DNA of 64,000 nt from a virus (lineage: Duplodnaviria; Heunggongvirae; Uroviricota; Caudoviricetes). How positions within the stretch are numbered: position 1 is the stretch's first letter; every line of letters starts with the position of its first letter. A program made the translations under genes and the position numbers. The notes beneath the pieces were generated by a model. The model was not told where the DNA came from. It saw only the letters and a program-made list of their open reading frames with translations, and did not search any database. Where the stretch lies: IMG/VR virus record IMGVR_UViG_2916199983_000001; one strand, 5' to 3'. This document shows positions 10,364 through 49,312 of the stretch, in pieces.

Positions 10364-10739
10364 AACCCAGGGACTCCATTTTGAAAACCAAATGATTTAA
10401 TTCAGTACCATCGTTGGTGGGTGGTATGTTCCCAAATTTTCCAAAATAAACAAGATCATCCCTACAAAAACTGTGGGTCTGGAAAGGTGTTCAGTTGGAG
10501 GGAGATTGTGAGAATGGAAAAATAAATATTGCACAAAGTTTAAGGTCATGACTTAATAGTGGCGTCGGTTTGCAAGACAGACCTTATGAAAGCAGTTTTA
10601 GTAAAGCAGTCCGTAGTTCAGGTGTTATCCAACAGATTTCCCTTCTTCGTGAGTCTCCTCCTAAGTGCCCAAGTAAGTCCCACTCTATCAGACCAAATTC
10701 GCCGCGTTGTGTGGCTCTCGAATCAAGAAGGTAATATCT

Positions 10740-10955
10740 ATGTCTAACAAAATGACTGGTTTAGTAAAATGGTTTAACGCTGATAAAGGCTTCGGCTTTA
10801 TCACTCCTGCTGATGGTAGCAAAGATGTGTTCGTTCACTTCTCTGCAATCCAGAGCAATGACTTCCGTACCCTGGATGAAGGCCAGAAAGTTGAGTTCTC
10901 TATCGAGAATGGCGCTAAAGGCCCGGCAGCAGCAAACGTTGTAGCCTTAAGCTAA
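10740..10955 (+). CDS. cspA: cold-shock protein CspA family
   Basis: [23 protein letters not shown]...VFVHFSAIQ matches the CspA RNP1/RNP2 motifs. An SD AAGGTAATATCT precedes the ATG at 10740. A long 5' leader follows, as in cspA. Confidence 0.85.
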
Positions 10956-11085
10956 TACACTCTGGTAATCCATTTGCTGCGATAACGAAGACGGCTTTAG
11001 CCTGAGTAGACAGAACGATGTGATTATCAGACGGTGAAAGGCTGATCTGGCGGCATTCGCCCGACCAACACGCCACCAATAAATG

Positions 11086-25534: not shown

Positions 25535-25801
25535 ATGAAAAAATCACGTTTTACCGACAGCCAGATCATGGCCATCCTCAAGCAAGCAGAAGCAGGAACG
25601 CCGGTGGCTGAATTGTGCCGCGAGCATGGCATGAGTAGCGCCAGTTTCTATAAGTGGCGCTCACGCTTTGGCGGGATGGATGCCTCCATGATGGCCCGTC
25701 TGAAAGAGCTGGAAGATGAAAACCGCCGCCTTAAAAAGATGTATGCCGAAGAACGACTAAAAGCCGAGATCATTCAGGAGGCTATGGCAAAAAAGTGGTG
25801 A
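25535..25801 (+). CDS. IS3-family transposase OrfA (HTH + leucine zipper)
   Basis: [32 protein letters not shown].... Confidence 0.85.
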
Positions 25802-26622
25802 AGCCATCGCATCGAAAGCAGATGGCACAGGACGCAGTCAGGAGTCGAAGCGTCAGCATACATTTTGCCTGCCAGTTGTTTGCTGTCAGCGAAAGTTGCT
25901 ATCGCTATCAGCCTCAGTTGAATGAAGAAAATGTCATTATTGCCGACTGGTTGCTCCGCATCACTGGCAATCAGCGCAACTGGGGATTTGGCCTGTGCTT
26001 TTTGTATCTGCGTAACGTAAAAGGCTTTAAGTTCAACCACAAAAGGGTGTACCGAATTTACTGCGAGTTATCGCTGAACATGCGAATAAAGCCGAAAAAA
26101 CGACTGAAACGGGATAAGCCCGAACCGCTGACGGTACCTAAAAACAGTAATGAATGCTGGTCGATGGACTTCATGCACGATCAATTATCAGATGGTCGCT
26201 CAGTCCGTCTGCTGAATATTATCGATGATTTTAACCGTGAGGCACTGGCAATAGAGGTCGATTTTTCTCTGCCGGCAAACCGAGTTGTGCGAACGCTGGA
26301 ACAGCTCATTGAATGGAAAGGTAAACCCATAGCAATACGATGTGATAATGGACCAGAATATACCAGTAACACGTTGATATCATGGGCTAATGACAGGGGC
26401 ATCCAGATTAACTTTATTCAGCCCGGCAATCCGCAGCAAAATGCCTATATTGAGCGTTACAACCGTACGGTACGCTATGATTGGCTGGGGCAACACCTGT
26501 TTACATCACTGGATGAATTGCAGAACTATGCCACGCAGTGGCAATGGTTTTATAATCATGAACGACCAAATATGGCGTTGAATGGTTTCACGCCGATGCA
26601 ACATATTCAACGCATGGCCTGA
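25795..26622 (+). CDS. IS3-family transposase OrfB (DDE), expressed by -1 frameshift
   Basis: DDE region ...WSMDFMHD...IRCDNGPEY...[12 protein letters not shown].... Confidence 0.85.
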
Positions 26623-27463
26623 TTCTACTTATCACCTCCGTCAAAAATGGGGGTATTACCGAATGACCCTTTCTCCAGCCCGCTGCAAATTCAGACGGTG
26701 TCTGATAATTCAGCGTGGAGTGCGGGCGGCATTCGTTATAATCCTGCCGCCAGTCATTAATAATTTTCCTGGCATGAACGATATCGCTGAACCAGTGCTC
26801 ATTCAAACATTCATCGCGAAATCGTCCGTTAAAGCTCTCAATAAATCCGTTCTGCGTTGGCTTGCCCGGCTGGATTAAGCGCAACTCAACACCATGCTCA
26901 AAGGCCCATTGATCCAGTGCACGGCAAGTGAACTCCGGCCCCTGGTCAGTTCTTATCGTCGCCGGATAGCCTCGAAACAGTGCAATGCTGTCCAGAATAC
27001 GCGTGACCTGAACGCCTGAAATCCCAAAGGCAACAGTGACCGTCAGGCATTCCTTTGTGAAATCATCGACGCAGGTAAGACACTTGATCCTGCGACCGGT
27101 GGAAAGTGCGTCCATGACGAAATCCATCGACCAGGTCAGATTGGGCGCCGCCGGACGGAGCAGCGGCAGACGTTCTGTTGCCAGCCCTTTACGACGTCTT
27201 CTGCGTTTTACGCCCAGGCCACTGAGGTGATAAAGCCGGTACACGCGCTTATGATTAACATGAAGCCCTTCACGGCGCAGCAACTGCCAAATACGACGGT
27301 AGCCAAAACGCCTGCGCTCCAGTGCCAGCTCAGTGATGCGCCCTGATAAATGCGCATCAGCAGCCGGACGGTGAGCCTCATAGCGGCAGGTCGACAGGGA
27401 TAAACCTGTAAGCCTGCAGGCACGACGTTGCGACAGACCGGTCGCATCACACATCAACATCAC
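26588..27463 (-). CDS. IS407-group transposase OrfB (DDE)
   Basis: ...WSMDFVMD...IRTDQGPEF...[23 protein letters not shown]...RPHSTL.... Confidence 0.85.
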
Positions 27464-27821
27464 GGCTTCCCGCTTCTGGTCTGTCGTCAGTACTTTCGCC
27501 CAAGAGCCACCTGAAGCGCCTCTTTATCCAGCATGGCTTCGGCAAGCAGCTTCTTGAGTCTGGTGTTCTCTTCCTCAAGCGACTTCAGGCGCTTAACTTC
27601 AGGCACCTCCATACCGCCATACTTCTTACGCCAGGTGTAAAACGTGGCATCGGAAATGGCATGCTTGCGGCAGAGTTCACGGGCGGGTACCCCAGCTTCG
27701 GCTTCGCGGAGAATACTGATGATCTGTTCGTCGGAAAAACGCTTCTTCATGGGGATGTCCTCATGTGGCTTATGAAGACATTACTAACATCGGGGTGTAC
27801 TAATCAACGGGGAGCAGGTCA
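26590..27821 (-). mobile_element. IS3-family (IS407-group) insertion sequence, copy B, inverted relative to copy A
   Basis: The outer terminus read in IS orientation is TGACCTGCTCCCCGTTGATTAGTACA, ending at 27821. Its orfB 3' end overlaps the 3' end of copy A orfB. Confidence 0.8.
27487..27750 (-). CDS. IS407-group transposase OrfA
   Basis: [30 protein letters not shown]...[15 protein letters not shown].... Confidence 0.85.
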
Positions 27822-28209: not shown

Positions 28210-28324
28210 TGGTTTAATTAAGCAGAGGAGCAAGGTCCTCGATTATGACATTGGTGTTATTAAATGAAATTGACTAACTTTGTCTTTTTTTTCAAGTAAT
28301 ATTGTTCTTTTTTGCTAATCTTAC

Positions 28325-28347
28325 AAAAGGGGCCGAAGCCCCTTTAA
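28325..28347. terminator. bidirectional rho-independent terminator
   Basis: AAAAGGGGCcgaaGCCCCTTTAAT. Confidence 0.5.
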
Positions 28348-28420
28348 TTATTTGCGCTGAAAAAAGTGTTGCTACGATGCTAAGAAGCAATGGTTAAGAA
28401 CGTCTGCCGTGTCTATCACA

Positions 28421-28496
28421 GCGCTGAACGGTCTGGCGACATTTTGCGGAGTCTTTCCGTTCGGACGGTGGTGGCGAACTCCAAACCGTTCAGCGC
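28421..28496. other. long hairpin: 12-bp perfect inverted repeat GCGCTGAACGGT/ACCGTTCAGCGC closing a structured 52-nt loop
   Basis: The inverted repeat is visible directly. Nested sub-stems (GGAGT..ACTCC, CCGT..ACGG) lie inside the loop. It sits just 3' of tRNA-Asn on the minus strand. Confidence 0.5.
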
Positions 28497-28501
28497 TATG
28501 T

Positions 28502-28576
28502 TGGCGATGGTGGGTGGACTCGAACCACCGACCAGTTGATTAACAGTCAACCGCTCTACCACTGAGCTACACCATC
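28502..28576 (-). tRNA. tRNA-Asn (anticodon GTT), CCA encoded
   Basis: Hand fold: acceptor GATGGTG/CACCATC, D-arm GCTC-AGTGGTA-GAGC, anticodon stem GTTGA/TCAAC with loop CTGTTAA, T-arm GGTGG-TTCGAGT-CCACC, discriminator G, then CCA. Confidence 0.85.
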
Positions 28577-29323
28577 ATTTTCGCGGCGGTACTTGTTCAT
28601 GGACAACCAGGCAACCAAGAACTTTCCCGCAACTTGCACTTTACGTTAGTGCCAGACGAGGCTTATGGCTCGCTCACATAGAGCGAAGATCTGGAATCCT
28701 TCTCGGCGGTTGACGGCCGCCAGACTCTTCGATCTTATTGGATGTATGGAATCATCCATGTTGTGGAACCAGGGGCTACATAGGCAACAATGATTTCACC
28801 AGAGGGTTAAAGAATCCTGCTTTCACAACGTTGAGGCCACTGAACCGATTTATGTTCGACCCAACATATTGATCAGTCACTACAGCTCTGTGGAATCACC
28901 TGTATGATTAAAAGAAAAACAGTGACCTCAACGTTGTGCGCTGGCTAACCAAGCCAGCCGGGTTACGTCGCCGCTTTTAACCCAAGATTAAACGACATAA
29001 GTAATGGAAATGACGTAACAGGATGGACGGTCAGCTGGCTGAAACCGGGATGATGGAATGGAATGAGGAAACCAACCGCCCATCCTGTTACTTCATCGAA
29101 TAGGGCATGGGTGGTGCAACATGCCCTATCCTGCGTTCTACAATCACACTCGCTCAGTGTGTCCCATTTCGGTGACGAGGCTGGAAACTGACCTCGCTGG
29201 TGTTTGGCTTCTTAGGCTACTGCCAGGTACGTATCTTCGTTTGCAGTTATATTTAACGTTCAAACAGTCGCGTCTCAACGAAAACAAATGAATCTTATAC
29301 ATAACAGATAAGTAAGTAAATAC

Positions 29324-29557
29324 TTATTTTTCTGTGACTCGTTCAGTTGCTATCTTTTTGACCAAGCTCACCTTCTGTTCCGGCGTTCTAGTGATGATGG
29401 CCGTAAAACGCTTCGCTTGAATAGTGATAGTTTCGTTCTCCTTCAGTTCGCCGTAGTGAGTCTCCAGCAGAGAACCCAGGCGCCACAGACCGTCATCTAT
29501 GCGTTTATGGCTGGCAAATCTGATCAGCAGTAGCTTTACGATTAACTGACCAGTGTA
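29324..29557 (-). pseudogene. 3' part of a 101-codon phage gene interrupted by the Tn3-family transposon
   Basis: Joined with 38363..38439 and counting the GTGTA once, it gives one open frame: MSNLTSFDWWLATYLVAAGFGYAFYTGQLIVKLLLIRF...TERVTEK. Confidence 0.6.
29553..29557. repeat. target-site duplication GTGTA (left copy)
   Basis: Identical pentamer abuts each 38-bp IR. Confidence 0.85.
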
Positions 29558-29595
29558 GGGGTTTGAGGGCCAATGGAACGAAAACGTACGCTAAG
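29558..29595. repeat. Tn3-family 38-bp terminal inverted repeat (tnpA end)
   Basis: It contains the tnpA stop codon, as in Tn3. Confidence 0.9.
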
Positions 29596-32500
29596 AAGTT
29601 AATTCATTGTTTAAATTGAAATTTAGTTCTCTCAGTTCCCCCTTCAAAATATCCTCCGGTAGCGTAAACGTATAATGCCCCAGCATATTGATATGCCCGT
29701 GCATCAGTGGGGACAACCGGGCGATATCTTCAACCCCGATTTCTTCTCCATTACTGCGTATCCAGCTCAGGGCTTCCTGCATATAAAGTGTGTTCCACAG
29801 TACCACTGCGTTAGTGACCAGGCCCAGTGCCCCCAGCTGATCTTCCTGACCTTCACGATAGCGCTTTCTGATCTCACCGCGCTGCCCGTAGCAGATCGCC
29901 CTCGCCACAGCATGGCGGCCTTCCCCCCGGTTTAGCTGCGTCAGGATCCGCCGACGATAATCCTCATCATCAATATAATTAAGAAGGTACAGCGTCTTGT
30001 TGACGCGCCCCACTTCCATGATCGCCTGTGCCAGCCCTGATGGGCGCGAGCTTTTCAGCAAAGAGCGAATGAGTTCTGAAGCATGAATGGTGCCCAGTTT
30101 CAGCGAACCGGCGGTTCGCATCATCTCATCCCACTGATCCTCGGCTTTCGACAGATCGGCACAACCACGTGCCAGTTCGTCCAGTGCACCGTAATTTGCC
30201 GATTTATCCACTCGCCAGAATACCGCTTCACCGGCATCGGCAAGCCGGGGGGAAAACTGGTATCCCAGCAGCCAGAAGAGGCCAAAAATAATGTCGCTGG
30301 TACCGGCTGTGTCTGTCATGATCTCAACCGGATTCAGCCCTGTCTGCTGCTCCAGAAGGCCTTCCAGCACAAAAATGGAATCTCGTAATGTGCCGGGGAC
30401 AACGATGCCGTGGAATCCAGAGTACTGATCAGAGACGAAGTTGTACCAGGTGATGCCACGTCCGGAACCAAAATATTTTCTGTTAGGTCCTGAATTGACG
30501 GTTTTCACCGGCGTGACAAAGCGCATGCCATCAGCTGAAGCCACTTCGCCACCACCCCAGCGGCCAGCAAGCTCCAGTGTGGACTGAAAATCAACCAGGC
30601 GGGCATTGGCGCTGACCAGCGTTTCTGCCCGGAGGTAATTCTGTTTTACCCAGCTAAGCCGGTGGCGCGTCAGCGCCGGTATATTGTGCTTTATCAGCGG
30701 TTCCAGCCCGATATTGCAGGCCTCTGCCATCAGGACCGCGCACAGGCTGATGTGCAGATCCTGTGCCCGGGCCCCGGATTCACTGACATGCGTAAACTCA
30801 CGTGTAAATCCCGTTCTGGCATCTATTTCAAGCAACAGTTCCGTCAAATCTACTGGCGGGAGTAGCAGCCTTACCCGACTGTTGAGACGATGCAACGATG
30901 TTGGCTCCTCCAGTTTCTCCAGGCTGCTGATAGTCAGGGAAGGATGTTTACCGTCATGGCAAATATGAACCTCCGCATTTCCTTCAAAGCGGGATGCGAC
31001 GGTTTTCCAGGTTTCATCTAGCTGGACCGCCAACTGTTGCACGCCTTTATGTCCATCAGTGGGATGTCCCAGCGCCCGGCAAACGGGGACCCGCTGAGCC
31101 TGCCATTCTTCCCCCTGCAACAGCTTCTCGCGGGGATTTCCCCAGCGATCGCTGTTTTCGAGCCAGATGTCCCTTCGACGTAGTGCATCCTGAAGGCGCT
31201 CCAGCAGACAAAGCGAGTAACCGGCACGCTGTATCCGGCCCTCCGCATCGTATACCAGGCGTTTCCAGGGGCCGGTAATAATATGTTCAGGCGCATTGTC
31301 CAGGATGCGCTTTTTCGAGCAGTTCAGTTCGGTCAGATAATGAATGGCGGACAACGTATGTTCTCCGGCTGGCGCTGCCTGGAAATGCAGGTCGCGCAAT
31401 ACCGCCGGAAGAAAGCGCTTTACCCGCCCGTACTGCTCCACCATTTCGTCATGGAAATTGTTGTTCTGAGGCCGGGCCAGCTCATTTACCTTGCAGACGG
31501 ATTCTGCCAGCCTGCTTTTCGGTATGCTGTTGAATATGGTCTCCCTCAGTTCAGCATCGTCAGCCTGTTCATCCAGCAACAATGAACATGCCCGCGCCAA
31601 TATTAGCGCAGCACGATCAAGATCTTTAAGCGTCCTGAGCCGTTTTTTCTGCCCCGTTTTCTTCGCCGCACGAGTGATATCCAGTATCAGCATATCGAGC
31701 ACATCAATGGCCTCATCCAGCGCCGCAGTCTCCTGCGCTTTAACGAATGCTGTGAGTACGGCCAGTTTTCTCTGCTGTGGCATTCGCGCGATATATTTTA
31801 CCGACGCCATGCCTGCGTAACGGGCCAAATTACGCAGTTGTATAGCAGGCAGACCGGTAAAATTCAGTCGGGAAAATTCCAGGTTTCGCAGCCGGATATA
31901 CCGCTCCAGCGCTTCGGTAAATGCCGGGCCGCTGACGGTGACCGGTCCCTTTTTCAGTTGCTCCAGCGGTGAAGTACGCTGCCCCTCAGGAATGTCCAGA
32001 AGCTCCGTCACGCGGGCGGTCTGCCAGCTGTCCGGCAACGCGGCCAGTTTCTTCCACAGCCGCTGATTTGCCCGTTCGCGTATTTCACTGACGAGACGTA
32101 CAAGTGTGGTTGCTCCGGGCAGCAGGACCTTATTCTGAAGCAGCCACGCGGTGGCAAAATCAAACATAAGGCCGGGTCGCTCATTACTGAGCCATGCGCG
32201 GGTGTACAGCAGGCGCTTCAGGCGGAAAGACCAGGGGAAATCGCCAAATTCATGGTAACCGTAATATTCCTTAATCAGCGCAGTATGCTCTCTGAGGGTG
32301 GTAACCCGTTCTGCGTAGCGGGTAAGGACTTCTGGACGGCGAATATTAAGCTGCACCGCGACAAATTGCTGAACACCTGGCAGAACCCGGGTTAAGTCTG
32401 TCAGAAAGGTGCCCAGAAAACGGGCGGTGGTGAGCTGAAGCGCAATTCCCAGCCGGTTATGCCTTCCCCGCCGCTGGTTAATGAAGGCAAGATCCCGCTC

Positions 32501-32599
32501 ATCAAGATGAAAATAGCGCGCCAGCTGCACGTCATTGGGTTCTGCAACATAGCGACCATAATTCAGTTCCTGCTCAGTGGTCAGAAAATCGACGGGCAT
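29591..32599 (-). CDS. tnpA: Tn3-family transposase TnpA
   Basis: 1002 aa. It closely resembles Tn3/Tn1000 TnpA from the N-terminus (MPVDFLTTEQ...ARYFHLDE...NRLGIALQ) to the C-terminal DDE region (GLVTNAVVLWNT.YMQ...LSPL.HGHINMLGHY). Confidence 0.95.
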   Translation of the reverse strand: MPVDFLTTEQELNYGRYVAEPNDVQLARYFHLDERDLAFINQRRGRHNRLGIALQLTTARFLGTFLTDLTRVLPGVQQFVAVQLNIRRPEVLTRYAERVTTLREHTALIKEYYGYHEFGDFPWSFRLKRLLYTRAWLSNERPGLMFDFATAWLLQNKVLLPGATTLVRLVSEIRERANQRLWKKLAALPDSWQTARVTELLDIPEGQRTSPLEQLKKGPVTVSGPAFTEALERYIRLRNLEFSRLNFTGLPAIQLRNLARYAGMASVKYIARMPQQRKLAVLTAFVKAQETAALDEAIDVLDMLILDITRAAKKTGQKKRLRTLKDLDRAALILARACSLLLDEQADDAELRETIFNSIPKSRLAESVCKVNELARPQNNNFHDEMVEQYGRVKRFLPAVLRDLHFQAAPAGEHTLSAIHYLTELNCSKKRILDNAPEHIITGPWKRLVYDAEGRIQRAGYSLCLLERLQDALRRRDIWLENSDRWGNPREKLLQGEEWQAQRVPVCRALGHPTDGHKGVQQLAVQLDETWKTVASRFEGNAEVHICHDGKHPSLTISSLEKLEEPTSLHRLNSRVRLLLPPVDLTELLLEIDARTGFTREFTHVSESGARAQDLHISLCAVLMAEACNIGLEPLIKHNIPALTRHRLSWVKQNYLRAETLVSANARLVDFQSTLELAGRWGGGEVASADGMRFVTPVKTVNSGPNRKYFGSGRGITWYNFVSDQYSGFHGIVVPGTLRDSIFVLEGLLEQQTGLNPVEIMTDTAGTSDIIFGLFWLLGYQFSPRLADAGEAVFWRVDKSANYGALDELARGCADLSKAEDQWDEMMRTAGSLKLGTIHASELIRSLLKSSRPSGLAQAIMEVGRVNKTLYLLNYIDDEDYRRRILTQLNRGEGRHAVARAICYGQRGEIRKRYREGQEDQLGALGLVTNAVVLWNTLYMQEALSWIRSNGEEIGVEDIARLSPLMHGHINMLGHYTFTLPEDILKGELRELNFNLNNELTS

Positions 32600-33748
<1,149 letters not shown>

Positions 33749-33752
33749 TAAT

Positions 33753-33774
33753 GAAGGGGGCAAATGCCCCCTTC
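33753..33774. terminator. bidirectional terminator shared by the convergent arsA fragment and arsC
   Basis: GAAGGGGGCaaatGCCCCCTTC. Confidence 0.6.
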
Positions 33775-33778
33775 GTCT

Positions 33779-34204
33779 TTATTTCAGTCTTTTACCTGAA
33801 TCATCAACGACTTTTTCACCGTCTTCCTTGGTGAAAGCCGCTTTCTGGGCATCTGGAAGGATATCGAGAACAACCTCTGAAGGACGGCAAAGTTTAGTTC
33901 CCAGTGGCGTCACTACGATCGGACGGTTGATCAGAATCGGATGCTGTAGCATAAAGTCGATGAGCTGGTCGTCAGTAAATTTATCTTCTGCAAGACCCAG
34001 TTCCTCATACGGCTCGACGTTCTTACGCAGCAAAGCCCGGACGGAAATGCCCATATCCGCAATGAGTTTGAGCAGCTCATCGCGTGAAGGTGGAGTCTCA
34101 AGGTAAAGAATAACGGTCGGCTCGATACCGCTGTTGCGGATCATCTCCAGCGTATTACGCGACGTGCCGCAGGCTGGGTTGTGATAAATGGTGATGTTGC
34201 TCAT
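33779..34204 (-). CDS. arsC: arsenate reductase ArsC (glutaredoxin-coupled, R773 type)
   Basis: MSNITIYHNPACGTSRNTLEMIR... Confidence 0.95.
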   Translation of the reverse strand: MSNITIYHNPACGTSRNTLEMIRNSGIEPTVILYLETPPSRDELLKLIADMGISVRALLRKNVEPYEELGLAEDKFTDDQLIDFMLQHPILINRPIVVTPLGTKLCRPSEVVLDILPDAQKAAFTKEDGEKVVDDSGKRLK

Positions 34205-34216
34205 ATCAGTATCTCA

Positions 34217-35506
34217 TTACAAAGTGAAAGAGAGACGTAGCGCCAGCGCGGCCAGCGTTACAAACAGCACAGGCAGAGTCATGACGATCCCGGTGCGGAA
34301 ATAGTATCCCCATGTGATGGTCATGTTCTTCTGTGAAAGGACATGCAGCCAGAGCAACGTTGCCAGGCTACCAATAGGTGTAATTTTCGGTCCAAGATCG
34401 CAGCCAATCACGTTGGCAAAAATCATCGCCTCTTTGATAACGCCTGTTGCAGTGCTGCCATCAATAGAGAGAGCACCAACCAGCACGGTAGGCATATTGT
34501 TCATGATGGAAGAGAGGAAAGCCGTCAGGAAGCCAGTACCAAACGTCGCGGCCCAAAGTCCTTTATCTGCCAGCACGTTCAACACACCGGAGAGGTATTC
34601 TGTTAGTCCGGCATTACGCAGACCATAGACCACCAGATACATTCCCAGAGAGAATATGACGATCTGCCATGGCGCACCGCGAAGCACTTTGCCAGTGTTA
34701 ATGGCATGGCCTCGCTTCGCCACCGCAAACAGAATGACAGCCCCTACAGCAGCAATCGCACTGACCGGGATACCCAACGGCTCAAGGACGAAAAAGCCAA
34801 CCAGAAGAAGGATCAACACTATCCAGCCGGTTCTGAAGGTTGCCAGATCTTTAATCGCTTTTGCCGGTGCTTTCAGGAGAGCCAGGTCGTAAGTTGGCGG
34901 AATATCTTTGCGGAAGAACAGATGCAGCATCACCAGCGTGGCGATAATGGCTGCGATATCCACCGGCACCATTACCGACGCATACTCAGTGAAACCCAGC
35001 CCAAAGAAGTCTGCAGAAACGATGTTAACCAGGTTGGACACGATAAGCGGCAGACTGGCCGTATCGGCAATAAACCCGGCGGCCATGACAAATGCCAGCG
35101 TAGTGCCTTTGCTGAAACCTAATGCAAGCAGCATGGCGATAACAATTGGCGTCAGAATCAATGCCGCACCATCGTTGGCAAACAGTGCCGCCACCGCTGC
35201 GCCGAGCAAAACGATATAGGTAAACAGCAAACGCCCGCGACCGTTACCCCAACGTGAAACGTGCAGCGCCGCCCATTCGAAAAAGCCCGATTCATCGAGC
35301 AGAAGGCTGATAATAATCACGGCAATAAAGGTCGCCGTCGCATTCCAGACAATATTCCACACTACAGGGATATCACCAAAATGGACTACGCCAGAGATCA
35401 GCGCCAGTACCGCGCCCAGCGTCGCACTCCAGCCGATCCCTAATCCCTTCGGTTGCCAGATAACCAAAACGATGGTCAGGACAAAAATAGCGCCTGCCAG
35501 TAACAT
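34217..35506 (-). CDS. arsB: arsenite efflux permease ArsB
   Basis: The start at [21 protein letters not shown] matches the R773 ArsB N-terminus. The protein is 429 aa with many TM helices. Confidence 0.95.
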
Positions 35507-35554
35507 AAATCCTCCAGACAGGACGGCTTTGCCGCCCTGTATATACAAAAAAAA

Positions 35555-37306
35555 TTAAACAACCAGCTCTCTGAGTTTCTCGATGCCAGTGGGCTCTGCA
35601 GCCATTACCGGTACTAACGCTATGCGGCTTGCATGCTGGTTTTTCACAACCTCGATTTGAGGACGCTCTTGTAGGGCGCGCTGGCAAAGCAGCGGCGATT
35701 GCGTCTGTGCAATCGAAAGGCTGTTATTGATAATCCAGCCCCAGGGATGAATCCCCGCACGTTCAAGATCGGACTGCAGGTTTGCCGCTTCCAGTACAGG
35801 TGTGGTTTCAGGCAGAGTGACCAGCAAAACTTTGGTACGTTCCTGGTCCTGAAGCTGCATCATCGGAGTGGTAAAATGACCTTTATCCCCCATCTTCCTG
35901 GCAATCTCACGGTGATAAGCCCCGGTAGCATCAAGCAGTAATAGCGTATGCCCGGTAGGTGCCGTATCCATGACCACAAACCGTTTGCCAGCTTCACGAA
36001 TTACGCGTGAAAACGCCTGGAACACCGCAATCTCTTCTGTGCAAGGAGAACGTAAATCCTCTTCGAGCAGCCGTTTCCCAGCCTCATCCAGATCCCTGCC
36101 TTTCGTCTCAAGAACATGCTGACGATAGCGTTCAGTTTCATCGTGAGGGTTGATTCGGCTGACCTGCAGATTTTTGAGGCTGCCATTGAGCGTTGTACTG
36201 AGATGTGCAGCAGGATCTGAGGTGGTGAGATGCACATCAAAACCCTTATCCGCCAGACTGACGGCGATAGCCGCAGCCATTGTGGTTTTGCCCACACCAC
36301 CTTTGCCCATCAGCATAATCAAACCGTGTTCACTGCGGGCGATATCATCAACCAGGACAGACAACGACATATTCTCTGGCTTGTTCTGTGGGCTTTGTTC
36401 AGGAAGCGATGTTATCTCAGCGTGTTCGTTGAGCAGGCCTTTCAATGCGGATACACCAACCATGTTCAGCGGCTGCAGGTATAAGTTGTCTGTCGGCAAA
36501 TCAGATAACCCGGCAGGAAGATTTGCCAGCGCCTCTTGCTCCCGTTGCCATATTGCAGCGGCCAGTGCATCACGTTCTGCTTCGCTCGCAGGCAGGACAC
36601 CGTTAATGACTAAATACTGATTTTTAAGGCCAATAGCTGATAATTCGTCATGAGTACGAGCGACTTCCTGCAGTGTTGATTTTTGCAATCGCGCGACCAG
36701 CACAAGGCGAGTTCGTTCAGGATCGGATAATGCCTCAACCGCATGAGCATATTGCTCGCGTTGTTTTTCCAGCCCAGCCATTGGACCAAGACAGGAAGCA
36801 CCATCCGGGTTACTTTCGATGAAGCTGCTCCAGGCTCCGGGAAGCTGAAGAAGGCGAATAGTGTGGCCAGTTGGGGCAGTATCAAAAATGATGTGATCAA
36901 AGCGGGTCAGCAGAGAAGCGTCAGTCAGTAAGCCAGTAAACTCGTCGAATGCAGCGATCTCTGTCGTACAAGCTCCTGAAAGCTGTTCACTGATGCTGTT
37001 AACAACGTCATCAGGCAAAAGACCTTTAATAGGGTCAACGATTCTGGCGCGGTATTGCTGGGCGGCGTCCTGCGGGTCAATCTCCAGAGCCGAAAGACCA
37101 GACACAGCAGTCACGGGCTGGATAGTGTTACCGATAGTCTGATCGAATACCTGACCGACATTGGAAGCCGGGTCGGTACTGACAAGCAGAACACGCTTTC
37201 CCAGTTCAGCCAGACGTATAGCCGTTGCGCAGGAAATCGAAGTTTTGCCTACACCTCCCTTACCGGTGAAAAACAGGTAAGACGGGATATTCTCTAAGAA
37301 TTTCAT
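35555..37306 (-). CDS. arsA: arsenite-stimulated ATPase ArsA
   Basis: Duplicated P-loops FFTGKGGVGKTS and MLMGKGGVGKTT. The start is at MKFLENIP. Confidence 0.95.
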   Translation of the reverse strand: MKFLENIPSYLFFTGKGGVGKTSISCATAIRLAELGKRVLLVSTDPASNVGQVFDQTIGNTIQPVTAVSGLSALEIDPQDAAQQYRARIVDPIKGLLPDDVVNSISEQLSGACTTEIAAFDEFTGLLTDASLLTRFDHIIFDTAPTGHTIRLLQLPGAWSSFIESNPDGASCLGPMAGLEKQREQYAHAVEALSDPERTRLVLVARLQKSTLQEVARTHDELSAIGLKNQYLVINGVLPASEAERDALAAAIWQREQEALANLPAGLSDLPTDNLYLQPLNMVGVSALKGLLNEHAEITSLPEQSPQNKPENMSLSVLVDDIARSEHGLIMLMGKGGVGKTTMAAAIAVSLADKGFDVHLTTSDPAAHLSTTLNGSLKNLQVSRINPHDETERYRQHVLETKGRDLDEAGKRLLEEDLRSPCTEEIAVFQAFSRVIREAGKRFVVMDTAPTGHTLLLLDATGAYHREIARKMGDKGHFTTPMMQLQDQERTKVLLVTLPETTPVLEAANLQSDLERAGIHPWGWIINNSLSIAQTQSPLLCQRALQERPQIEVVKNQHASRIALVPVMAAEPTGIEKLRELVV

Positions 37307-48612: not shown

Positions 48613-49277
48613 TATTCTTCCTCCAGACTCATGATGTAATCTACAAACTCTTCAAACTCGGCTTCTGCCTTCTTATCGCGTTCGGCGCCAGTCATTTCAA
48701 AGATAGAACGACCTGCCTCTTCCGCATCGTCATAAACGTTACGGTTGTACAGGTTAACCGGCGCAGCCTCGATGCCGAATGTCTCGACAATTTCTTTCGC
48801 CGCCAGAATACGTGACGCCTGGGAAGGCAGTGACGGACACTGGTTCACTACCGCGCGGATCTTCACAGTCTCGTTCACGTTGCGAACGTTGTCGATAATC
48901 GGGTCGATATCACGCAGGGATTTCAAATCACGACGCTTAGGGCGAAGCGGGATAATGATGAAGTCTGCCAGCAGCATCGCTTGTCGCTGAATTTCGGAGT
49001 CAAAACCACCCGCATCAATGACGACGTAATCGTAGCGTCCCTTCAGCGATTTGATGTGTTTGACGATGTCGTCCTGAACGTATGCGAACGGGATTAGCTC
49101 AAGATCTTCGTTCTGGCGACGGTCTTCGCACCAGCTCGTTGTGGTGCGCTGAATATCAATGTCGGTGACGTGAGTCTTCTTTTTCTTTTTAACTTTGAGG
49201 CATACCGCAATTTGCTGGGCAACGGTAGATTTGCCTGGGCCGCCTTTTGTGCCGCCAACCACAATGATCCTGGTCAT
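48612..49277 (-). CDS. parA: ParA/Soj-family partition ATPase (type Ib)
   Basis: Deviant Walker A GGTKGGPGKST. 221 aa. Confidence 0.85.
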   Translation of the reverse strand: MTRIIVVGGTKGGPGKSTVAQQIAVCLKVKKKKKTHVTDIDIQRTTTSWCEDRRQNEDLELIPFAYVQDDIVKHIKSLKGRYDYVVIDAGGFDSEIQRQAMLLADFIIIPLRPKRRDLKSLRDIDPIIDNVRNVNETVKIRAVVNQCPSLPSQASRILAAKEIVETFGIEAAPVNLYNRNVYDDAEEAGRSIFEMTGAERDKKAEAEFEEFVDYIMSLEEE

Positions 49278-49312
49278 TGGTGAGTTCCCTTTGCGTGAAT
49301 TATTGTCGTATG

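What the first reader, a model, noticed from the sequence alone, without database searches (positions are those of the whole stretch)
28210..29323. 1.1 kb without ORFs but dense in dyad symmetries, adjacent to tRNA-Asn, including a 12-bp-stem hairpin with a structured loop
No ORF of 60 codons or more exists on either strand between 28210 and 29323. The region contains tRNA-Asn(GTT). It also has a 76-nt element closed by a perfect 12-bp inverted repeat (28421..28496), with nested stems inside. Further inverted repeats follow: CACAACGTTGAGG/CCTCAACGTTGTG at 28813 and 28916, AACAGGATGG/CCATCCTGTT at 29009 and 29069, ATAGGGCATG/CATGCCCTAT at 29091 and 29111, and CTGGCTaaccaAGCCAG at 28931. The region could hold decayed tRNA genes, small RNAs, a pac site or an origin. 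Nothing in the protein-coding annotation accounts for it.
Basis: seen in the sequence. Interest (0 to 1): 0.55.

Follow-up and report, generated by a model that had tools for sequence, protein, structure and literature searches.

The report
tRNA-less tmRNA-like phage RNA gene
The "empty" 1.1 kb is an unannotated structured RNA gene on the minus strand, upstream of tRNA-Asn, that copies the tag-coding part and pseudoknots of bacterial tmRNA but has no tRNA-like part, and relatives occur unannotated in hundreds of enterobacterial phages and phage-plasmids.

Summary
The window is Citrobacter plasmid pRHBSTW-00570_3, an SSU5-like phage-plasmid. The dyads are helices of one minus-strand RNA locus. 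In order it holds a promoter, a roughly 350-710 nt structured RNA, tRNA-Asn, a 20-bp terminal hairpin and a terminator.

The RNA is conserved and never annotated in 808 plasmids, 594 phage records and 258 of 5,426 E. coli genomes. Its helices and two or three H-type pseudoknots covary: 96.8% of cells pair, against 34-42% in slid controls.

Its 5' part reads GCA AAC GAA GAT ACG TAC CTG GCA GTA GCC TAA, or ANEDTYLAVA-stop. There is no start codon or Shine-Dalgarno. The upstream context matches tmRNA's, the stop sits in a hairpin loop, and pseudoknots follow. This is the layout of the tmRNA mRNA-like domain (E. coli tag ANDENYALAA). Fifteen tag variants across phage families keep the frame and show synonymous changes.

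No tRNA-like domain exists in the RNA or elsewhere on a related plasmid.

Best reading: a tmRNA-derived tag-template RNA that acts on host trans-translation. The mechanism is unproven. The 5' end is complementary to host ssrA tag codons, which is unexplained.

The parts
29292..29326 (-). Promoter-like region: -35 TTTACT (29315-29320), a 17-nt spacer, -10 TAAGAT (29292-29297). The palindrome TAAGTA-TT-TACTTA (29313-29326) overlaps the -35 and looks like an operator.
   Evidence: The position is conserved 7-12 nt upstream of the invariant GUUUUCG in all lineages, and stronger versions occur elsewhere: TTGACA-17-TAGATT in 46-kb Klebsiella phages, TTGACA-17-TATAGT in Moogle, TTTACC-17-TATAGT in Cronobacter-type plasmids. 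The palindrome has the compensatory variant TAGGTA..TACCTA. The window's own version scores 8 of 12 and is not called by the consensus scan.
28577..29288 (-). The whole non-coding RNA locus, from the inferred start near GUUUUCG to the 5' end of tRNA-Asn (about 710 nt). The 3' end is inferred to be made by RNase P cutting at the tRNA.
   Evidence: It is 73-98% conserved in SSU5-like plasmids, with 'none' in the annotation column of all 60 records sampled. Covarying helices run along its whole length. No terminator lies between it and the tRNA. The ends are inferred, not measured.
29098..29285 (-). The module shared with unrelated phages: a 5' leader beginning with the invariant GUUUUCG (29279-29285), the tag reading frame, hairpin H5, pseudoknots PKa and PKb, and hairpin Hd.
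   Evidence: An nhmmer profile of the SSU5-type RNA finds this part, profile positions 8-177, in 46-49 kb viral contigs at E of about 1e-11 to 1e-20. BLAST of the Moogle module finds 594 phage records. Alignment is A2.
29212..29244 (-). tmRNA-like tag reading frame: GCA AAC GAA GAT ACG TAC CTG GCA GTA GCC TAA = A-N-E-D-T-Y-L-A-V-A-stop. It has no start codon and no Shine-Dalgarno, and an in-frame TGA lies 5 codons upstream.
   Evidence: The sequence is. Fifteen peptide variants keep the 10-codon frame, except one 11-codon variant. Synonymous changes seen are GCA/GCT, AAC/AAT, GTA/GTG and GCC/GCT/GCG. ARAGORN's 'resume consensus' and tag call fall on the same motif in Moogle. The nhmmer module profile aligns in register to the E. 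coli ssrA tag region.
29197..29226 (-). H5-like hairpin: CUGG (29223-29226) pairs with CCAG (29197-29200), with the TAA stop codon in the loop.
   Evidence: The pairs are invariant within the SSU5 type. They covary in Salmonella phage SP058, where the stem is CUGAU/AUCAG. An inner stem UAGCC/GGCUA (variant GCU/AGC) occurs in the short-type RNAs.
29162..29196 (-). Pseudoknot PKa. Stem 1 is CGAGGU (29191-29196) with GCCUCG (29176-29181). Stem 2 is the loop UUCCA (29182-29186) with UGGGA (29162-29166).
   Evidence: Stem 1 has five complementary variants across families: CGAGG/CCUCG, CAAGG/CCUUG, CAGGG/CCCUG, UGAGG/CCUCA, UAGGG/CCCUA. Stem 2 has six: UUCCA/UGGGA, UUCCA/UGGAA, CUCCA/UGGAG, CCGA/UCGG, CCAG/CUGG, CCAA/UUGG.
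29133..29161 (-). PKb. Stem 1 is CACACU (29156-29161) with AGUGUG (29145-29150), followed by the conserved GAUU. A possible 3-bp stem 2 is GCG (29151-29153) with CGC (29133-29135).
   Evidence: Stem 1 has eight complementary variants across families, and one pair switches C-G to G-C within the SSU5/Cronobacter set. Stem 2 never varies in the SSU5 type, so it is untestable here. In other phages the equivalent stem is 4-8 bp and covaries: GCCCUGA/UCAGGGC, GCCCAC/GUGGGC, GGCGGGAG/CUCCCGCC.
29098..29131 (-). Hairpin Hd: GGAUAGGGCAUG with CAUGCCCUAUUC. Its apical part is variable.
   Evidence: The stem sequence is wholly replaced yet stays complementary in relatives: GGAGGGAACAU/AUGUUCCCUCC, GGUGGCC/GGCCACC. 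In short-type RNAs it corresponds to AAGAGCA/UGCUCUU, with AAUGGCA/UGCCAUU as a variant.
29009..29097 (-). Long hairpin He, about 20-22 bp: GAUGAAGUAACAGGAUGGGCGG with CCGUCCAUCCUGUUACGUCAUU. It is specific to the SSU5 type.
   Evidence: It is inverted repeat I1. All cells of its 20 pairs are paired, 3 pairs show changes on both sides and 5 show G-C to G-U changes.
28958..29000 (-). Candidate pseudoknot PKc. Stem 1 is UUAUGUC (28994-29000) with GACGUAA (28963-28969). Stem 2 is UUGGGUU (28979-28985) with AACCCGG (28958-28964).
   Evidence: Stem 1 was predicted by RNAalifold. Only one-sided changes (U-A to U-G) are seen, and stem 2 is 79% paired on the MAFFT alignment. Support is weaker than for PKa and PKb.
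28940..28958 (-). Hairpin Hf, GCUGGCU-UGGUU-AGCCAGC, which ends the roughly 350-nt core.
   Evidence: It is present in all SSU5-type and Cronobacter-type copies, with one compensatory pair. In Cronobacter-type plasmids a 69-aa ORF follows it directly.
28824..28938 (-). A 19-bp hairpin, CACAACGUUGAGGUCACUG with CAGUGGCCUCAACGUUGUG, enclosing 77 nt. It appears dispensable.
   Evidence: It is inverted repeat I3. Three pairs have changes on both sides. It is deleted in Klebsiella plasmid L011.
28741..28755 (-). The invariant 15-nt motif AUGAUUCCAUACAUC. Its function is unknown.
   Evidence: It is identical in all SSU5-type and Cronobacter-type sequences, although the flanks diverge.
28636..28653 (-). 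Conserved hairpin GGCAC-UAACGUAAA-GUGC, upstream of the tRNA.
   Evidence: Two pairs switch together in the Klebsiella lineage, C-G to U-A and A-U to G-C.
28502..28576 (-). tRNA-Asn(GUU) with an encoded CCA end.
   Evidence: ARAGORN finds it and Rfam RF00005 scores it 76.2 bits. Relatives carry arrays such as Asn-Tyr-Thr-Ser or Asn-Ser at this position.
28418..28499 (-). Terminal hairpin with a stem of about 20 bp and a variable interior. It is inferred to be an RNase III-type processing site or a protective 3' stem-loop for the tRNA operon.
   Evidence: Folding gives -42.5 kcal/mol and z = -6.6. The same stem has two compensatory changes in Cronobacter and Klebsiella (C-G to U-A and A-U to G-C), where it follows the last tRNA. 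The function is inferred only.
28325..28345 (-). Intrinsic-terminator-like hairpin AAAGGGGCUUCGGCCCCUUUU.
   Evidence: It is the only terminator-like site found in the region. The scan reports it on the plus strand (28326-28345) because the stem is palindromic. The minus-strand assignment rests on the U tail, which is 4 U in the window but 6-7 U in Enterobacter, E. coli and Cronobacter relatives.

Best explanation
Window 28577-29288, minus strand, is a gene for a large structured non-coding RNA of SSU5-like phage-plasmids. It has its own promoter and is followed by tRNA-Asn, a 20-bp terminal hairpin and a terminator.

Its conserved 5' module is a derivative or close mimic of the non-tRNA part of tmRNA. 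It has, in order:
- a short leader;
- an A-rich stretch with U at -5 and A at -4;
- a GCA 'resume' codon;
- a 10-codon tag frame, ANEDTYLAVA;
- a stop codon in the loop of a hairpin;
- two to three H-type pseudoknots.

It lacks the tRNA-like domain, that is, the acceptor stem, T-arm and CCA end.

Shown here: it is a conserved, covarying RNA structure. The tag frame is kept with synonymous changes. It resembles the tmRNA mRNA-like domain in sequence and layout. It has no tRNA-like domain.

Inferred: the RNA engages the host trans-translation machinery (host SmpB and alanyl-tmRNA, or an unknown acceptor RNA), so that stalled ribosomes read the phage tag. Alternatively it interferes with that machinery. 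Its 3' end is inferred to be released by RNase P at the tRNA.
For: Conservation without annotation:
- 808 plasmid records match, and all 60 sampled list 'none' except a flanking caf1R or 'C-type natriuretic'/hypothetical gene in a few.
- 594 phage records match.
- 258 of 5,426 E. coli genomes match.

Structure:
- 96.8% of cells pair and 11 pairs change on both sides. Slid controls give 34-42% and at most 2 such pairs.
- Across phage families, PKa stem 1 has 5 complementary variants, PKa stem 2 has 6, PKb stem 1 has 8 and PKb stem 2 at least 4.
- Many conserved G-U pairs mark the minus strand as the folded one.
- The core folds with z = -5.2.

Tag frame:
- 15 peptide variants follow A-N-[DES]-[DENTA]-x-[YFCV]-L-[AM]-[VA]-A. 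The length is constant at 10 codons, with one 11-codon exception.
- Synonymous changes occur at GCA/GCT, AAC/AAT, GTA/GTG and GCC/GCT/GCG.
- There is no ATG/GTG/TTG start, and an in-frame TGA lies upstream.

Link to tmRNA:
- ARAGORN's resume consensus and tag call fall on this motif in phage Moogle.
- The module profile hits E. coli ssrA only at its tag region, in register.
- Four Rfam tmRNA models give sub-threshold hits through the tag region in phages Moogle, SP058 and MII_001, at E of 4e-4 to 1e-2.

No tRNA-like domain:
- ARAGORN and Rfam find none.
- A T-arm scan of the window and 100 kb of a related plasmid finds only tRNA-Asn.
- No SmpB gene is annotated on the related plasmid.
- In SP058 the RNA ends at its own terminator.
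Against: - There are no expression data. A Y. pestis sRNA-seq list does not include this pMT1 locus.
- The window's promoter is weak, 8 of 12, and the consensus scan does not call it.
- No Rfam tmRNA model hits the window copy even at E up to 10.
- Without a tRNA-like domain there is no known way to load the tag frame into a ribosome.
- The tag nucleotides are also constrained by RNA structure (H5), so the synonymous pattern is not pure evidence of translation.
- One Klebsiella plasmid lineage carries a premature TAG in the tag.
- Most compensatory changes within the SSU5-type alignment come from one diverged lineage, represented by four sequences.
Confidence: 0.55

Rival explanations
1. An inhibitor or regulator of host trans-translation that is not itself translated. 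The RNA would mimic the tmRNA mRNA-like domain to soak up a factor such as SmpB, ribosomal protein S1 or RNase R. It might also pair by its 5' end with the tag-coding region of host tmRNA and block or destabilise it.
For: - The 5' ends of all lineages are Watson-Crick complementary to E. coli ssrA nt 95-108, which are tag codons 3-7. The match is 7-12 nt, with 12 nt in an Erwinia phage.
- Shuffled 19-mers reach 10 nt or more in 6 of 2000 trials and 12 nt or more in none.
- The leaders are not complementary to the phage's own tag.
- A tRNA-domain-only tmRNA of mycobacteriophage DS6A is reported to inhibit tmRNA (PMC11915505; PMC4131195), so phage interference with this pathway has precedent.
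- The lack of a tRNA-like domain fits a molecule that never enters the ribosomal A site.
Against: - The codon-level pattern of the tag (synonymous third-position changes, constant 10-codon length, Tyr/Phe exchange) is not needed for a decoy.
- S. Typhimurium's tag is ANDETYALAA (PMC12493166). The 5' pairing would therefore be interrupted in Salmonella, a main host of these phages.
- Pairing of 8-12 nt is short, and there is no interaction data.
Confidence: 0.2
2. A structural leader or processing scaffold for the phage tRNA operon. It would be one of several stable RNA 'cassettes' in phage tRNA arrays, with the tag resemblance a relic of an ancestral tmRNA fragment and no present link to trans-translation.
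For: - The module almost always sits in or next to tRNA arrays.
- It is flanked by recurrent 'punctuation' hairpins, and other structured, tRNA-shaped cassettes lie next to it.
- Phage T4 is known, from general knowledge, to encode stable RNAs of unknown function in its tRNA cluster.
Against: - A relic would not keep the resume-codon context, the frame length and the stop-in-loop across Ounavirinae, Ackermannviridae, Schitoviridae, siphophages and phage-plasmids.
- Cronobacter-type plasmids and SP058 carry the RNA without an adjacent ARAGORN-called tRNA.
Confidence: 0.13
3. The coding piece of a true two-piece tmRNA, whose acceptor piece is encoded elsewhere or is too divergent to recognise.
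For: - The best Rfam hits are to permuted (two-piece) tmRNA models: RF04321, RF01849 and RF01850.
- Moogle has a permuted tRNA-like layout about 400 nt upstream: a T-arm, a 3' acceptor strand, GCCA, then AACA and the matching 5' acceptor strand.
- Unusual tRNA-like elements lie near the module in Ackermannviridae and 46-kb phages.
Against: - None of these elements has the alanine identity pair G3-U70, and none is conserved across the families.
- SSU5-like plasmids have no second T-arm at all.
- The module's 5' end, GUUUUCG, has no complementary 3' acceptor strand nearby.
Confidence: 0.08
4. A DNA-level element (replication origin, pac site or attachment site), or decayed protein or tRNA genes.
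For: - The dyad density first suggested it.
- The neighbourhood is an insertion hot spot: IS elements and Tn3 here, the caf1 operon in pMT1, and a cut tRNA-Asn in Klebsiella plasmids.
Against: - The covariation keeps G-U pairs that would be A-C on the other strand.
- The plasmid replicon (repA) is elsewhere.
- Homologues occur in virulent phages without integrases.
- Similarity to ssrA is to its middle, not the 3' end that integrases use.
- No ORF appears in any relative, apart from an inserted 69-aa gene in one lineage.
Confidence: 0.03

Closest known systems
tmRNA (SsrA), standard one-piece form (Rfam RF00023)
   Same: - An A-rich stretch with U at -5 and A at -4 before a GCA resume codon.
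- A 10-codon tag starting A-N-D/E and ending in small hydrophobic residues.
- A stop codon in the loop of a hairpin (helix 5).
- A series of H-type pseudoknots after the tag.
- The module profile aligns in register to E. coli ssrA nt 80-124.
   Different: - It has no tRNA-like domain: no acceptor stem, no T-arm, no CCA end, no G3-U70 pair.
- No PK1 is recognisable.
- The tag ends LAVA instead of ALAA.
- It is not called by ARAGORN or by any Rfam tmRNA model at threshold.
- It is carried by phages and phage-plasmids that have no annotated smpB.
Two-piece (permuted) tmRNA of alpha-, beta-proteobacteria and cyanobacteria (RF01849, RF01850, RF04321)
   Same: - The coding piece is a separate RNA holding the tag frame and pseudoknots.
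- These models give the best, though sub-threshold, Rfam hits to the phage module.
   Different: - Known coding pieces begin with the 5' acceptor strand and pair with an acceptor piece made from the same transcript.
- No such strand or partner is found here.
tRNA-domain-only 'CDS-less' tmRNA of mycobacteriophage DS6A
   Same: It is a phage-encoded partial tmRNA. It is reported to inhibit host tmRNA, perhaps by titrating SmpB (PMC4131195).
   Different: It is the opposite half. DS6A keeps the tRNA-like domain and lacks the tag frame, whereas this RNA keeps the tag frame and pseudoknots and lacks the tRNA-like domain.
ARAGORN 'tmRNA/ssrA' calls in FelixO1-like phage genome announcements (for example Citrobacter phage Moogle, PMC4319497)
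   Same: It is the same locus. The tag ANDNVFLAVA called in Moogle is a homologue of this module.
   Different: The published call is a composite. It borrows its tRNA-like halves from neighbouring sequences, spans three real tRNA genes, and is not annotated in the GenBank record. tmRNA database surveys did not accept any enterobacterial phage or plasmid tmRNA.
Large phage-associated ncRNAs next to tRNA genes (GOLLD, ROOL) and the stable RNAs of the T4 tRNA cluster
   Same: These are large or stable structured RNAs of unknown function, carried by phages and clustered with tRNA genes. This comparison rests on general knowledge.
   Different: There is no sequence or structure match, since the Rfam scan was negative. 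None of those RNAs carries a tmRNA-like tag frame.

Membership tests
tmRNA (SsrA) | A tRNA-like domain: a 7-bp acceptor stem formed by the 5' and 3' ends (or by two pieces), a T-arm, and a 3' (N)CCA end | tested here: not met
   ARAGORN at default and at ps90 finds no tmRNA in the window. The only T-arm in the window and in 100 kb of a related plasmid belongs to tRNA-Asn. No strand complementary to the 5' end is found.
tmRNA (SsrA) | Alanine identity, a G3-U70 pair in the acceptor stem | tested here: not met
   There is no acceptor stem. The neighbouring tRNA-like elements inspected in related phages have G-C or A-U at that position.
tmRNA (SsrA) | A tag reading frame that starts at a non-initiator resume codon (usually GCA, Ala), encodes about 10 residues ending in hydrophobic residues, and ends in a stop codon | tested here: met
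   GCA AAC GAA GAT ACG TAC CTG GCA GTA GCC TAA lies at 29212-29244. Fifteen in-frame variants show synonymous changes. ARAGORN's resume consensus matches in Moogle.
tmRNA (SsrA) | The single-stranded A-rich context upstream of the resume codon, U85 and A86 in E. coli | tested here: met
   AUAUAACU, GAUAAAU or AUACAAGU precede GCA, with U (or C) at -5 and A at -4. They align to AAAAAUAGUC-GCA of E. coli ssrA.
tmRNA (SsrA) | The stop codon lies in the loop of helix 5 | tested here: met
   CUGG...UAA...CCAG is seen here, with covariation to CUGAU/AUCAG in SP058 and an inner stem UAGCC/GGCUA elsewhere.
tmRNA (SsrA) | Pseudoknots downstream of the tag (PK2-PK4) and PK1 upstream | tested here: inconclusive
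   Two well-supported H-type pseudoknots (PKa, PKb) and a third candidate (PKc) follow the tag. Homology to PK2-PK4 is not established. No PK1 was found in the 40-50 nt leader.
tmRNA (SsrA) | A score above the family threshold with the Rfam covariance models (RF00023, RF01849, RF01850, RF01851, RF04321) | tested here: not met
   The window gives no hit at E up to 10. Homologues in other phages score 15-30 bits against thresholds of 47-84, and match only through the tag region.
tmRNA (SsrA) | Works with SmpB and is charged by alanyl-tRNA synthetase | not testable with these tools
   No smpB gene is annotated on the related plasmid, so host SmpB would be needed. This requires biochemistry.
tRNA operon of SSU5-like phage-plasmids | A canonical tRNA gene with flanking processing and termination signals on the same strand as the backbone genes | tested here: met
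   tRNA-Asn lies at 28502-28576, minus strand. The terminal 20-bp hairpin and the terminator follow it. All backbone genes are on the minus strand.

The most novel reading that the evidence does not exclude
Enterobacterial phages and phage-plasmids carry a free-standing tag-template RNA. It docks by its 5' end onto the tag-coding region of the host's own tmRNA, or onto host SmpB. This would reprogram trans-translation, so that stalled ribosomes add a phage-specified tag (...YLAVA) instead of the host degradation tag (...YALAA). That would be a two-RNA, host-plus-virus hybrid tmRNA.
Probability: 0.15. Interest if true: 0.95.

Novelty: new variant of a known kind. Interest (0 to 1): 0.82.

Why it matters
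tmRNA is thought to need its tRNA-like and mRNA-like halves together. The only known partial forms keep the tRNA half. An RNA that keeps only the tag frame and pseudoknots would be the missing opposite case.

This one covaries and is conserved in hundreds of virulent phages: Felixounavirus and other Ounavirinae, Ackermannviridae, Schitoviridae and 46-kb Klebsiella siphophages. It is also in SSU5-like phage-plasmids, a group that includes Y. pestis pMT1, and in about 5% of complete E. coli genomes.

It raises a directly testable question: do phages rewrite, borrow or block the host's ribosome-rescue and protein-tagging system?

It also fills a blind spot in annotation. No record inspected annotates it, and one published 'ssrA' call in a phage appears to be a composite artefact built on this module.

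Tried and rejected
- Rfam at permissive thresholds on the window gave only tRNA and the IS frameshift element. There was no GOLLD, ROOL, group I intron, riboswitch or tmRNA hit.
- The 78-nt hairpin as a decayed tRNA-Tyr is rejected. The same hairpin ends longer tRNA arrays in relatives, and its stem covaries.
- A protein-coding relic is rejected. No ORF appears in any lineage except an inserted 69-aa gene in Cronobacter-type plasmids.
- An alternative small ORF in the +1 frame ([A/G/C]TG CAA ACG ... TGG CAG TAG) is rejected. Its start varies ATG/GTG/CTG and its residues are not conserved, whereas the GCA frame shows synonymous changes.
- Pairing of the 5' GUUUUCG with the RNA's own tag, which is RNAalifold's first helix, is not supported. 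The tag changes are not compensated, for example in Cba120 and the Erwinia phage.
- The search for a tRNA-like domain in cis or in trans was negative. I used ARAGORN at lowered thresholds, a T-arm scan, and a search for acceptor-strand complements in SP058. Low-threshold ARAGORN calls were noise or composites.
- ARAGORN's tRNA-Lys at 49209-49289 as a partner is rejected. Rfam does not support it, and it lies within an ATPase gene.
- Y. pestis sRNA-seq gave no expression evidence. The pMT1 sRNAs sR082 and sR083 map elsewhere.
- Whole-molecule RNAduplex against ssrA was uninformative for long inputs. I replaced it with a longest-match test.
- The strict-pattern scan of species-representative genomes gave only two true hits (Buttiauxella, Kluyvera) and one chance hit in a Sphingomonas coding region.
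Full report
**Where we are.** The window is identical to Citrobacter sp. RHBSTW-00570 plasmid pRHBSTW-00570_3 (NZ_CP056401.1, 119.7 kb, IncFIB), with the same coordinates. It is an SSU5-like phage-plasmid. Salmonella phage SSU5 is 98.6% identical over window 28462-29557. All backbone genes around the finding are on the minus strand, in this order: primase, ligase, several small ORFs, then an ORF mislabelled 'C-type natriuretic protein'.

In this plasmid that last ORF (29324-29542) is truncated by a Tn3-family transposon carrying an ars operon. To the left, two nested IS3-family elements and other cargo end at about 28324.

**Checking the observation.**
- No ORF of 60 codons or more lies in 28210-29323.
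- tRNA-Asn(GTT) is at 28502-28576 on the minus strand.
- The 12-bp-stem element is real, at 28420-28497. It extends to a stem of about 20 bp, folds at -42.5 kcal/mol, and has z = -6.6.

**It is RNA, on the minus strand.** Blastn at low stringency finds the 747 nt between the upstream ORF and the tRNA in 808 plasmid records from Klebsiella, Escherichia, Enterobacter, Yersinia, Salmonella, Citrobacter and Cronobacter. Identity is 73-100%, and the 60 records sampled carry no annotation under the match apart from a flanking caf1R or hypothetical gene in a few.

An alignment of 13 lineages showed hairpins whose sequence is replaced while complementarity is kept. On a 19-sequence alignment of the roughly 350-nt core (A1), my curated structure has 66 pairs in 10 helices, three of them pseudoknot stems. 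The counts are as follows.

| Measure | Structure | Slid controls |
|---|---|---|
| Cells paired | 96.8% | 34-42% |
| Pairs changed on both sides | 11 | at most 2 |

None of 500 shuffles reaches the observed values. Many conserved pairs are G-U, which would be A-C on the plus strand, so the folded molecule is the minus-strand transcript.

The core folds with z = -5.2. The 3' half, between the core and the tRNA, also holds covarying helices. These are the 19-bp hairpin, a GGCAC/GUGC hairpin and an invariant 15-nt motif.

A promoter-like TTTACT-17-TAAGAT sits 7-12 nt upstream of the invariant GUUUUCG. It is weak here, and the consensus scan does not call it. Its position is nevertheless conserved, and other lineages have near-consensus versions there.

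**The RNA is much wider than SSU5.** A motif scan of IMG/VR and an nhmmer profile of the SSU5-type RNA found full-length copies. They also found a second class that shares only the first roughly 170-220 nt, in 46-49 kb contigs.

These contigs are Klebsiella siphophages such as BUCT541, KpV2811 and YX3973. The same module occurs in:
- Felixounavirus, Mooglevirus and Kolesnikvirus (Ounavirinae);
- Ackermannviridae (Cba120, KP6, Serratia phage IME250);
- Schitoviridae (FSL SP-058, IME11);
- several others.

In total it matches 594 phage records, whose feature column reads 'none' or 'hypothetical protein'. It is in 258 of 5,426 complete E. coli genomes, mostly on plasmids. It usually lies inside or beside tRNA arrays.

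Across these families the pseudoknot stems covary richly. PKa stem 1 has 5 complementary variants, PKa stem 2 has 6, PKb stem 1 has 8 and PKb stem 2 at least 4, including a complete 8-bp replacement.

**What the module looks like.** ARAGORN called a 'permuted tmRNA' with tag ANDNVFLAVA in one locus, which turned out to be Citrobacter phage Moogle. Inspection shows the call borrows its tRNA-like halves from flanking sequence and spans three real tRNA genes. Its 'resume consensus' and tag, however, are exactly our conserved motif.

In the window the motif reads GCA AAC GAA GAT ACG TAC CTG GCA GTA GCC TAA, which is ANEDTYLAVA-stop, at 29212-29244. E. coli ssrA reads GCA AAC GAC GAA AAC TAC GCT TTA GCA GCT TAA, which is ANDENYALAA.

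The features that match tmRNA are these:
- There is no start codon or Shine-Dalgarno, and an in-frame TGA lies five codons upstream.
- The five bases before GCA follow U/C-A-A/G-N-Y, as in E. coli (UAGUC).
- The stop codon lies in the loop of a CUGG/CCAG hairpin, like tmRNA helix 5. That hairpin covaries to CUGAU/AUCAG in phage SP058.
- Pseudoknots follow directly.

Fifteen tag peptides were found. All but one have 10 codons, and all fit A-N-[DES]-[DENTA]-x-[YFCV]-L-[AM]-[VA]-A. The conserved residues show synonymous codon changes: GCA/GCT, AAC/AAT, GTA/GTG and GCC/GCT/GCG.

A profile of the module searched against the E. coli ssrA locus hits only the tag region, in register. Four Rfam tmRNA models, above all the permuted two-piece ones, give sub-threshold hits through the tag region in Moogle, SP058 and Enterobacter phage MII_001. 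None hits the window copy.

**What is missing.** I found no tRNA-like domain. ARAGORN and Rfam find none. The 5' end has no complementary 3' strand. The only T-arm in the window and in 100 kb of a related plasmid belongs to tRNA-Asn. No smpB is annotated.

Cronobacter-type plasmids carry the RNA with no tRNA nearby. In SP058 the RNA runs to its own terminator.

Surveys by the tmRNA database authors list phage tmRNAs only in mycobacteriophages and Bacillus phage G. They also list a tRNA-domain-only form in DS6A. The Moogle genome announcement mentions an ARAGORN 'ssrA', but the GenBank record does not annotate it.

**An unexplained extra.** The invariant 5' GUUUUCG and its lineage-specific flanks are complementary to E. 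coli ssrA nt 95-108, which are tag codons 3-7. The match is 8 nt in the window, 10 nt in several phages and 12 nt in an Erwinia phage. Shuffled 19-mers reach 10 nt or more in 6 of 2000 trials and 12 nt or more in none. The leaders do not match the phage's own tag.

This suggests contact with host tmRNA. However, the Salmonella tag is ANDETYALAA, so the pairing would be interrupted in a major host. I treat it as a lead, not a finding.

**Interpretation.**
- Shown: a conserved, covarying, minus-strand RNA. It has a tmRNA-like tag frame, helix 5 and pseudoknots, has no tRNA-like domain, and is embedded in a tRNA operon with a terminal 20-bp hairpin and a terminator.
- Inferred: it acts on host trans-translation. 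It may serve as an alternative tag template that uses host SmpB and alanyl-tmRNA, or it may act as an inhibitor or decoy.
- Also inferred: RNase P at the tRNA makes its 3' end, and the 20-bp hairpin is an RNase III-type or protective element.

The translated-template reading is favoured by the codon-level pattern. The inhibitor reading is favoured by the missing tRNA domain and the antisense 5' end. Neither can be settled without experiments.

**Verdict.** The finding is real and more interesting than proposed. It is not a pac site, an origin or tRNA debris. It is a widespread, unannotated, tRNA-less relative of tmRNA.

Noticed in passing
window 10564-10998 (+): A full-length match to the cspA thermoregulator 5' UTR (Rfam RF01766, 224.9 bits). 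The phage-plasmid therefore carries a cold-shock-type leader, presumably with a cspA-like gene.
   Followed up: no
window 25535-27750: Two IS3-family elements are nested or adjacent. One is ISSen4-like and holds an IS1222-type frameshift element at 27403-27520 (156.6 bits). They lie just left of the RNA/tRNA locus.
   Followed up: partly
window 29324-29590 and 29591-35590: A Tn3-family transposon (tnpA 29591-32599, a resolvase, arsC/arsB/arsA) is inserted into the backbone ORF labelled 'C-type natriuretic protein'. It leaves 72 of about 101 codons. Homology to SSU5 stops at 29557.
   Followed up: partly
window 29313-29326 (-): The palindrome TAAGTA-TT-TACTTA overlaps the -35 of the RNA promoter and the stop codon of the upstream ORF. 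Cronobacter-type plasmids have the compensated form TAGGTA-TT-TACCTA, which suggests a protein operator.
   Followed up: partly
window 49209-49289 (+): ARAGORN calls an 81-nt tRNA-Lys(TTT) here. Rfam does not support it. The same call in a related plasmid lies within an AAA-family ATPase gene, so it is probably a false positive.
   Followed up: yes
L013 (Y. pestis pMT1, NC_004835) 1501-2030: The F1 capsule locus (caf1R, caf1M ...) is inserted into this RNA locus about 526 nt after the upstream ORF. The tmRNA-like core is left 97% identical. The plague plasmid therefore carries the module but has lost the tRNA-proximal part.
   Followed up: partly
L010, L011 (Klebsiella plasmids): tRNA-Asn is cut after about 20 nt by an insertion. 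L011 also lacks the 19-bp hairpin and has a premature TAG in the tag frame (ANDN-stop). The locus seems to be decaying in some plasmid lineages.
   Followed up: partly
L012, L022, L044, L086 (Cronobacter-type plasmids), about 330-540 nt after the resume codon: A 69-aa ORF (MQDVDELKRAAATLFVKAIQQNRGDYG...) lies between the RNA core and the invariant AUGAUUCCAUACAUC motif. SSU5-type plasmids have the 19-bp hairpin there. These plasmids have no tRNA nearby.
   Followed up: no
L118, L079, L127, L045, L141 (46-kb Klebsiella phages, Ackermannviridae), downstream of the module: These regions hold arrays of further structured RNA 'cassettes'. A recurring hairpin, AAGAGCA...UGCUCUU followed by UCCG(U/A)U, separates them. 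Several cassettes are tRNA-shaped (GUGGUGA...UCACCAC-AACA, some with D- and T-arms and long inserts) but are not called by ARAGORN or Rfam.
   Followed up: partly
L092 2478-2518 (-) = Citrobacter phage Moogle, about 64.1 kb: A T-arm, a 3' acceptor strand and GCCA are followed after AACA by the matching 5' acceptor strand GAAGGGT and a D-arm. This is a circularly permuted tRNA-like layout, in an unannotated 427-nt gap of the tRNA array.
   Followed up: no
L145, L141, L146 (Cba120, KP6, IME250), about 1.5 kb each: These Ackermannviridae stretches have no annotated features, or a single small hypothetical CDS in IME250. They are nonetheless dense in tRNA-like elements. One is a roughly 125-nt RNA with acceptor stem GCCGUU/AACGGC, a UUCGACU T-loop and an encoded CCA.
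   Followed up: no
L144 260-426 (Salmonella phage FSL SP-058): Neither ARAGORN nor Rfam confirms the two tRNAs annotated in the record (Arg, Leu). A T-arm-like UUAGG-UUCAACU-CCUAA lies about 30 nt upstream of the module.
   Followed up: partly
NZ_CP133340.1 78349-79791 (related Enterobacter plasmid): This is another 1.4-kb stretch without listed genes in the SSU5-like backbone. It could hold further RNA genes.
   Followed up: no
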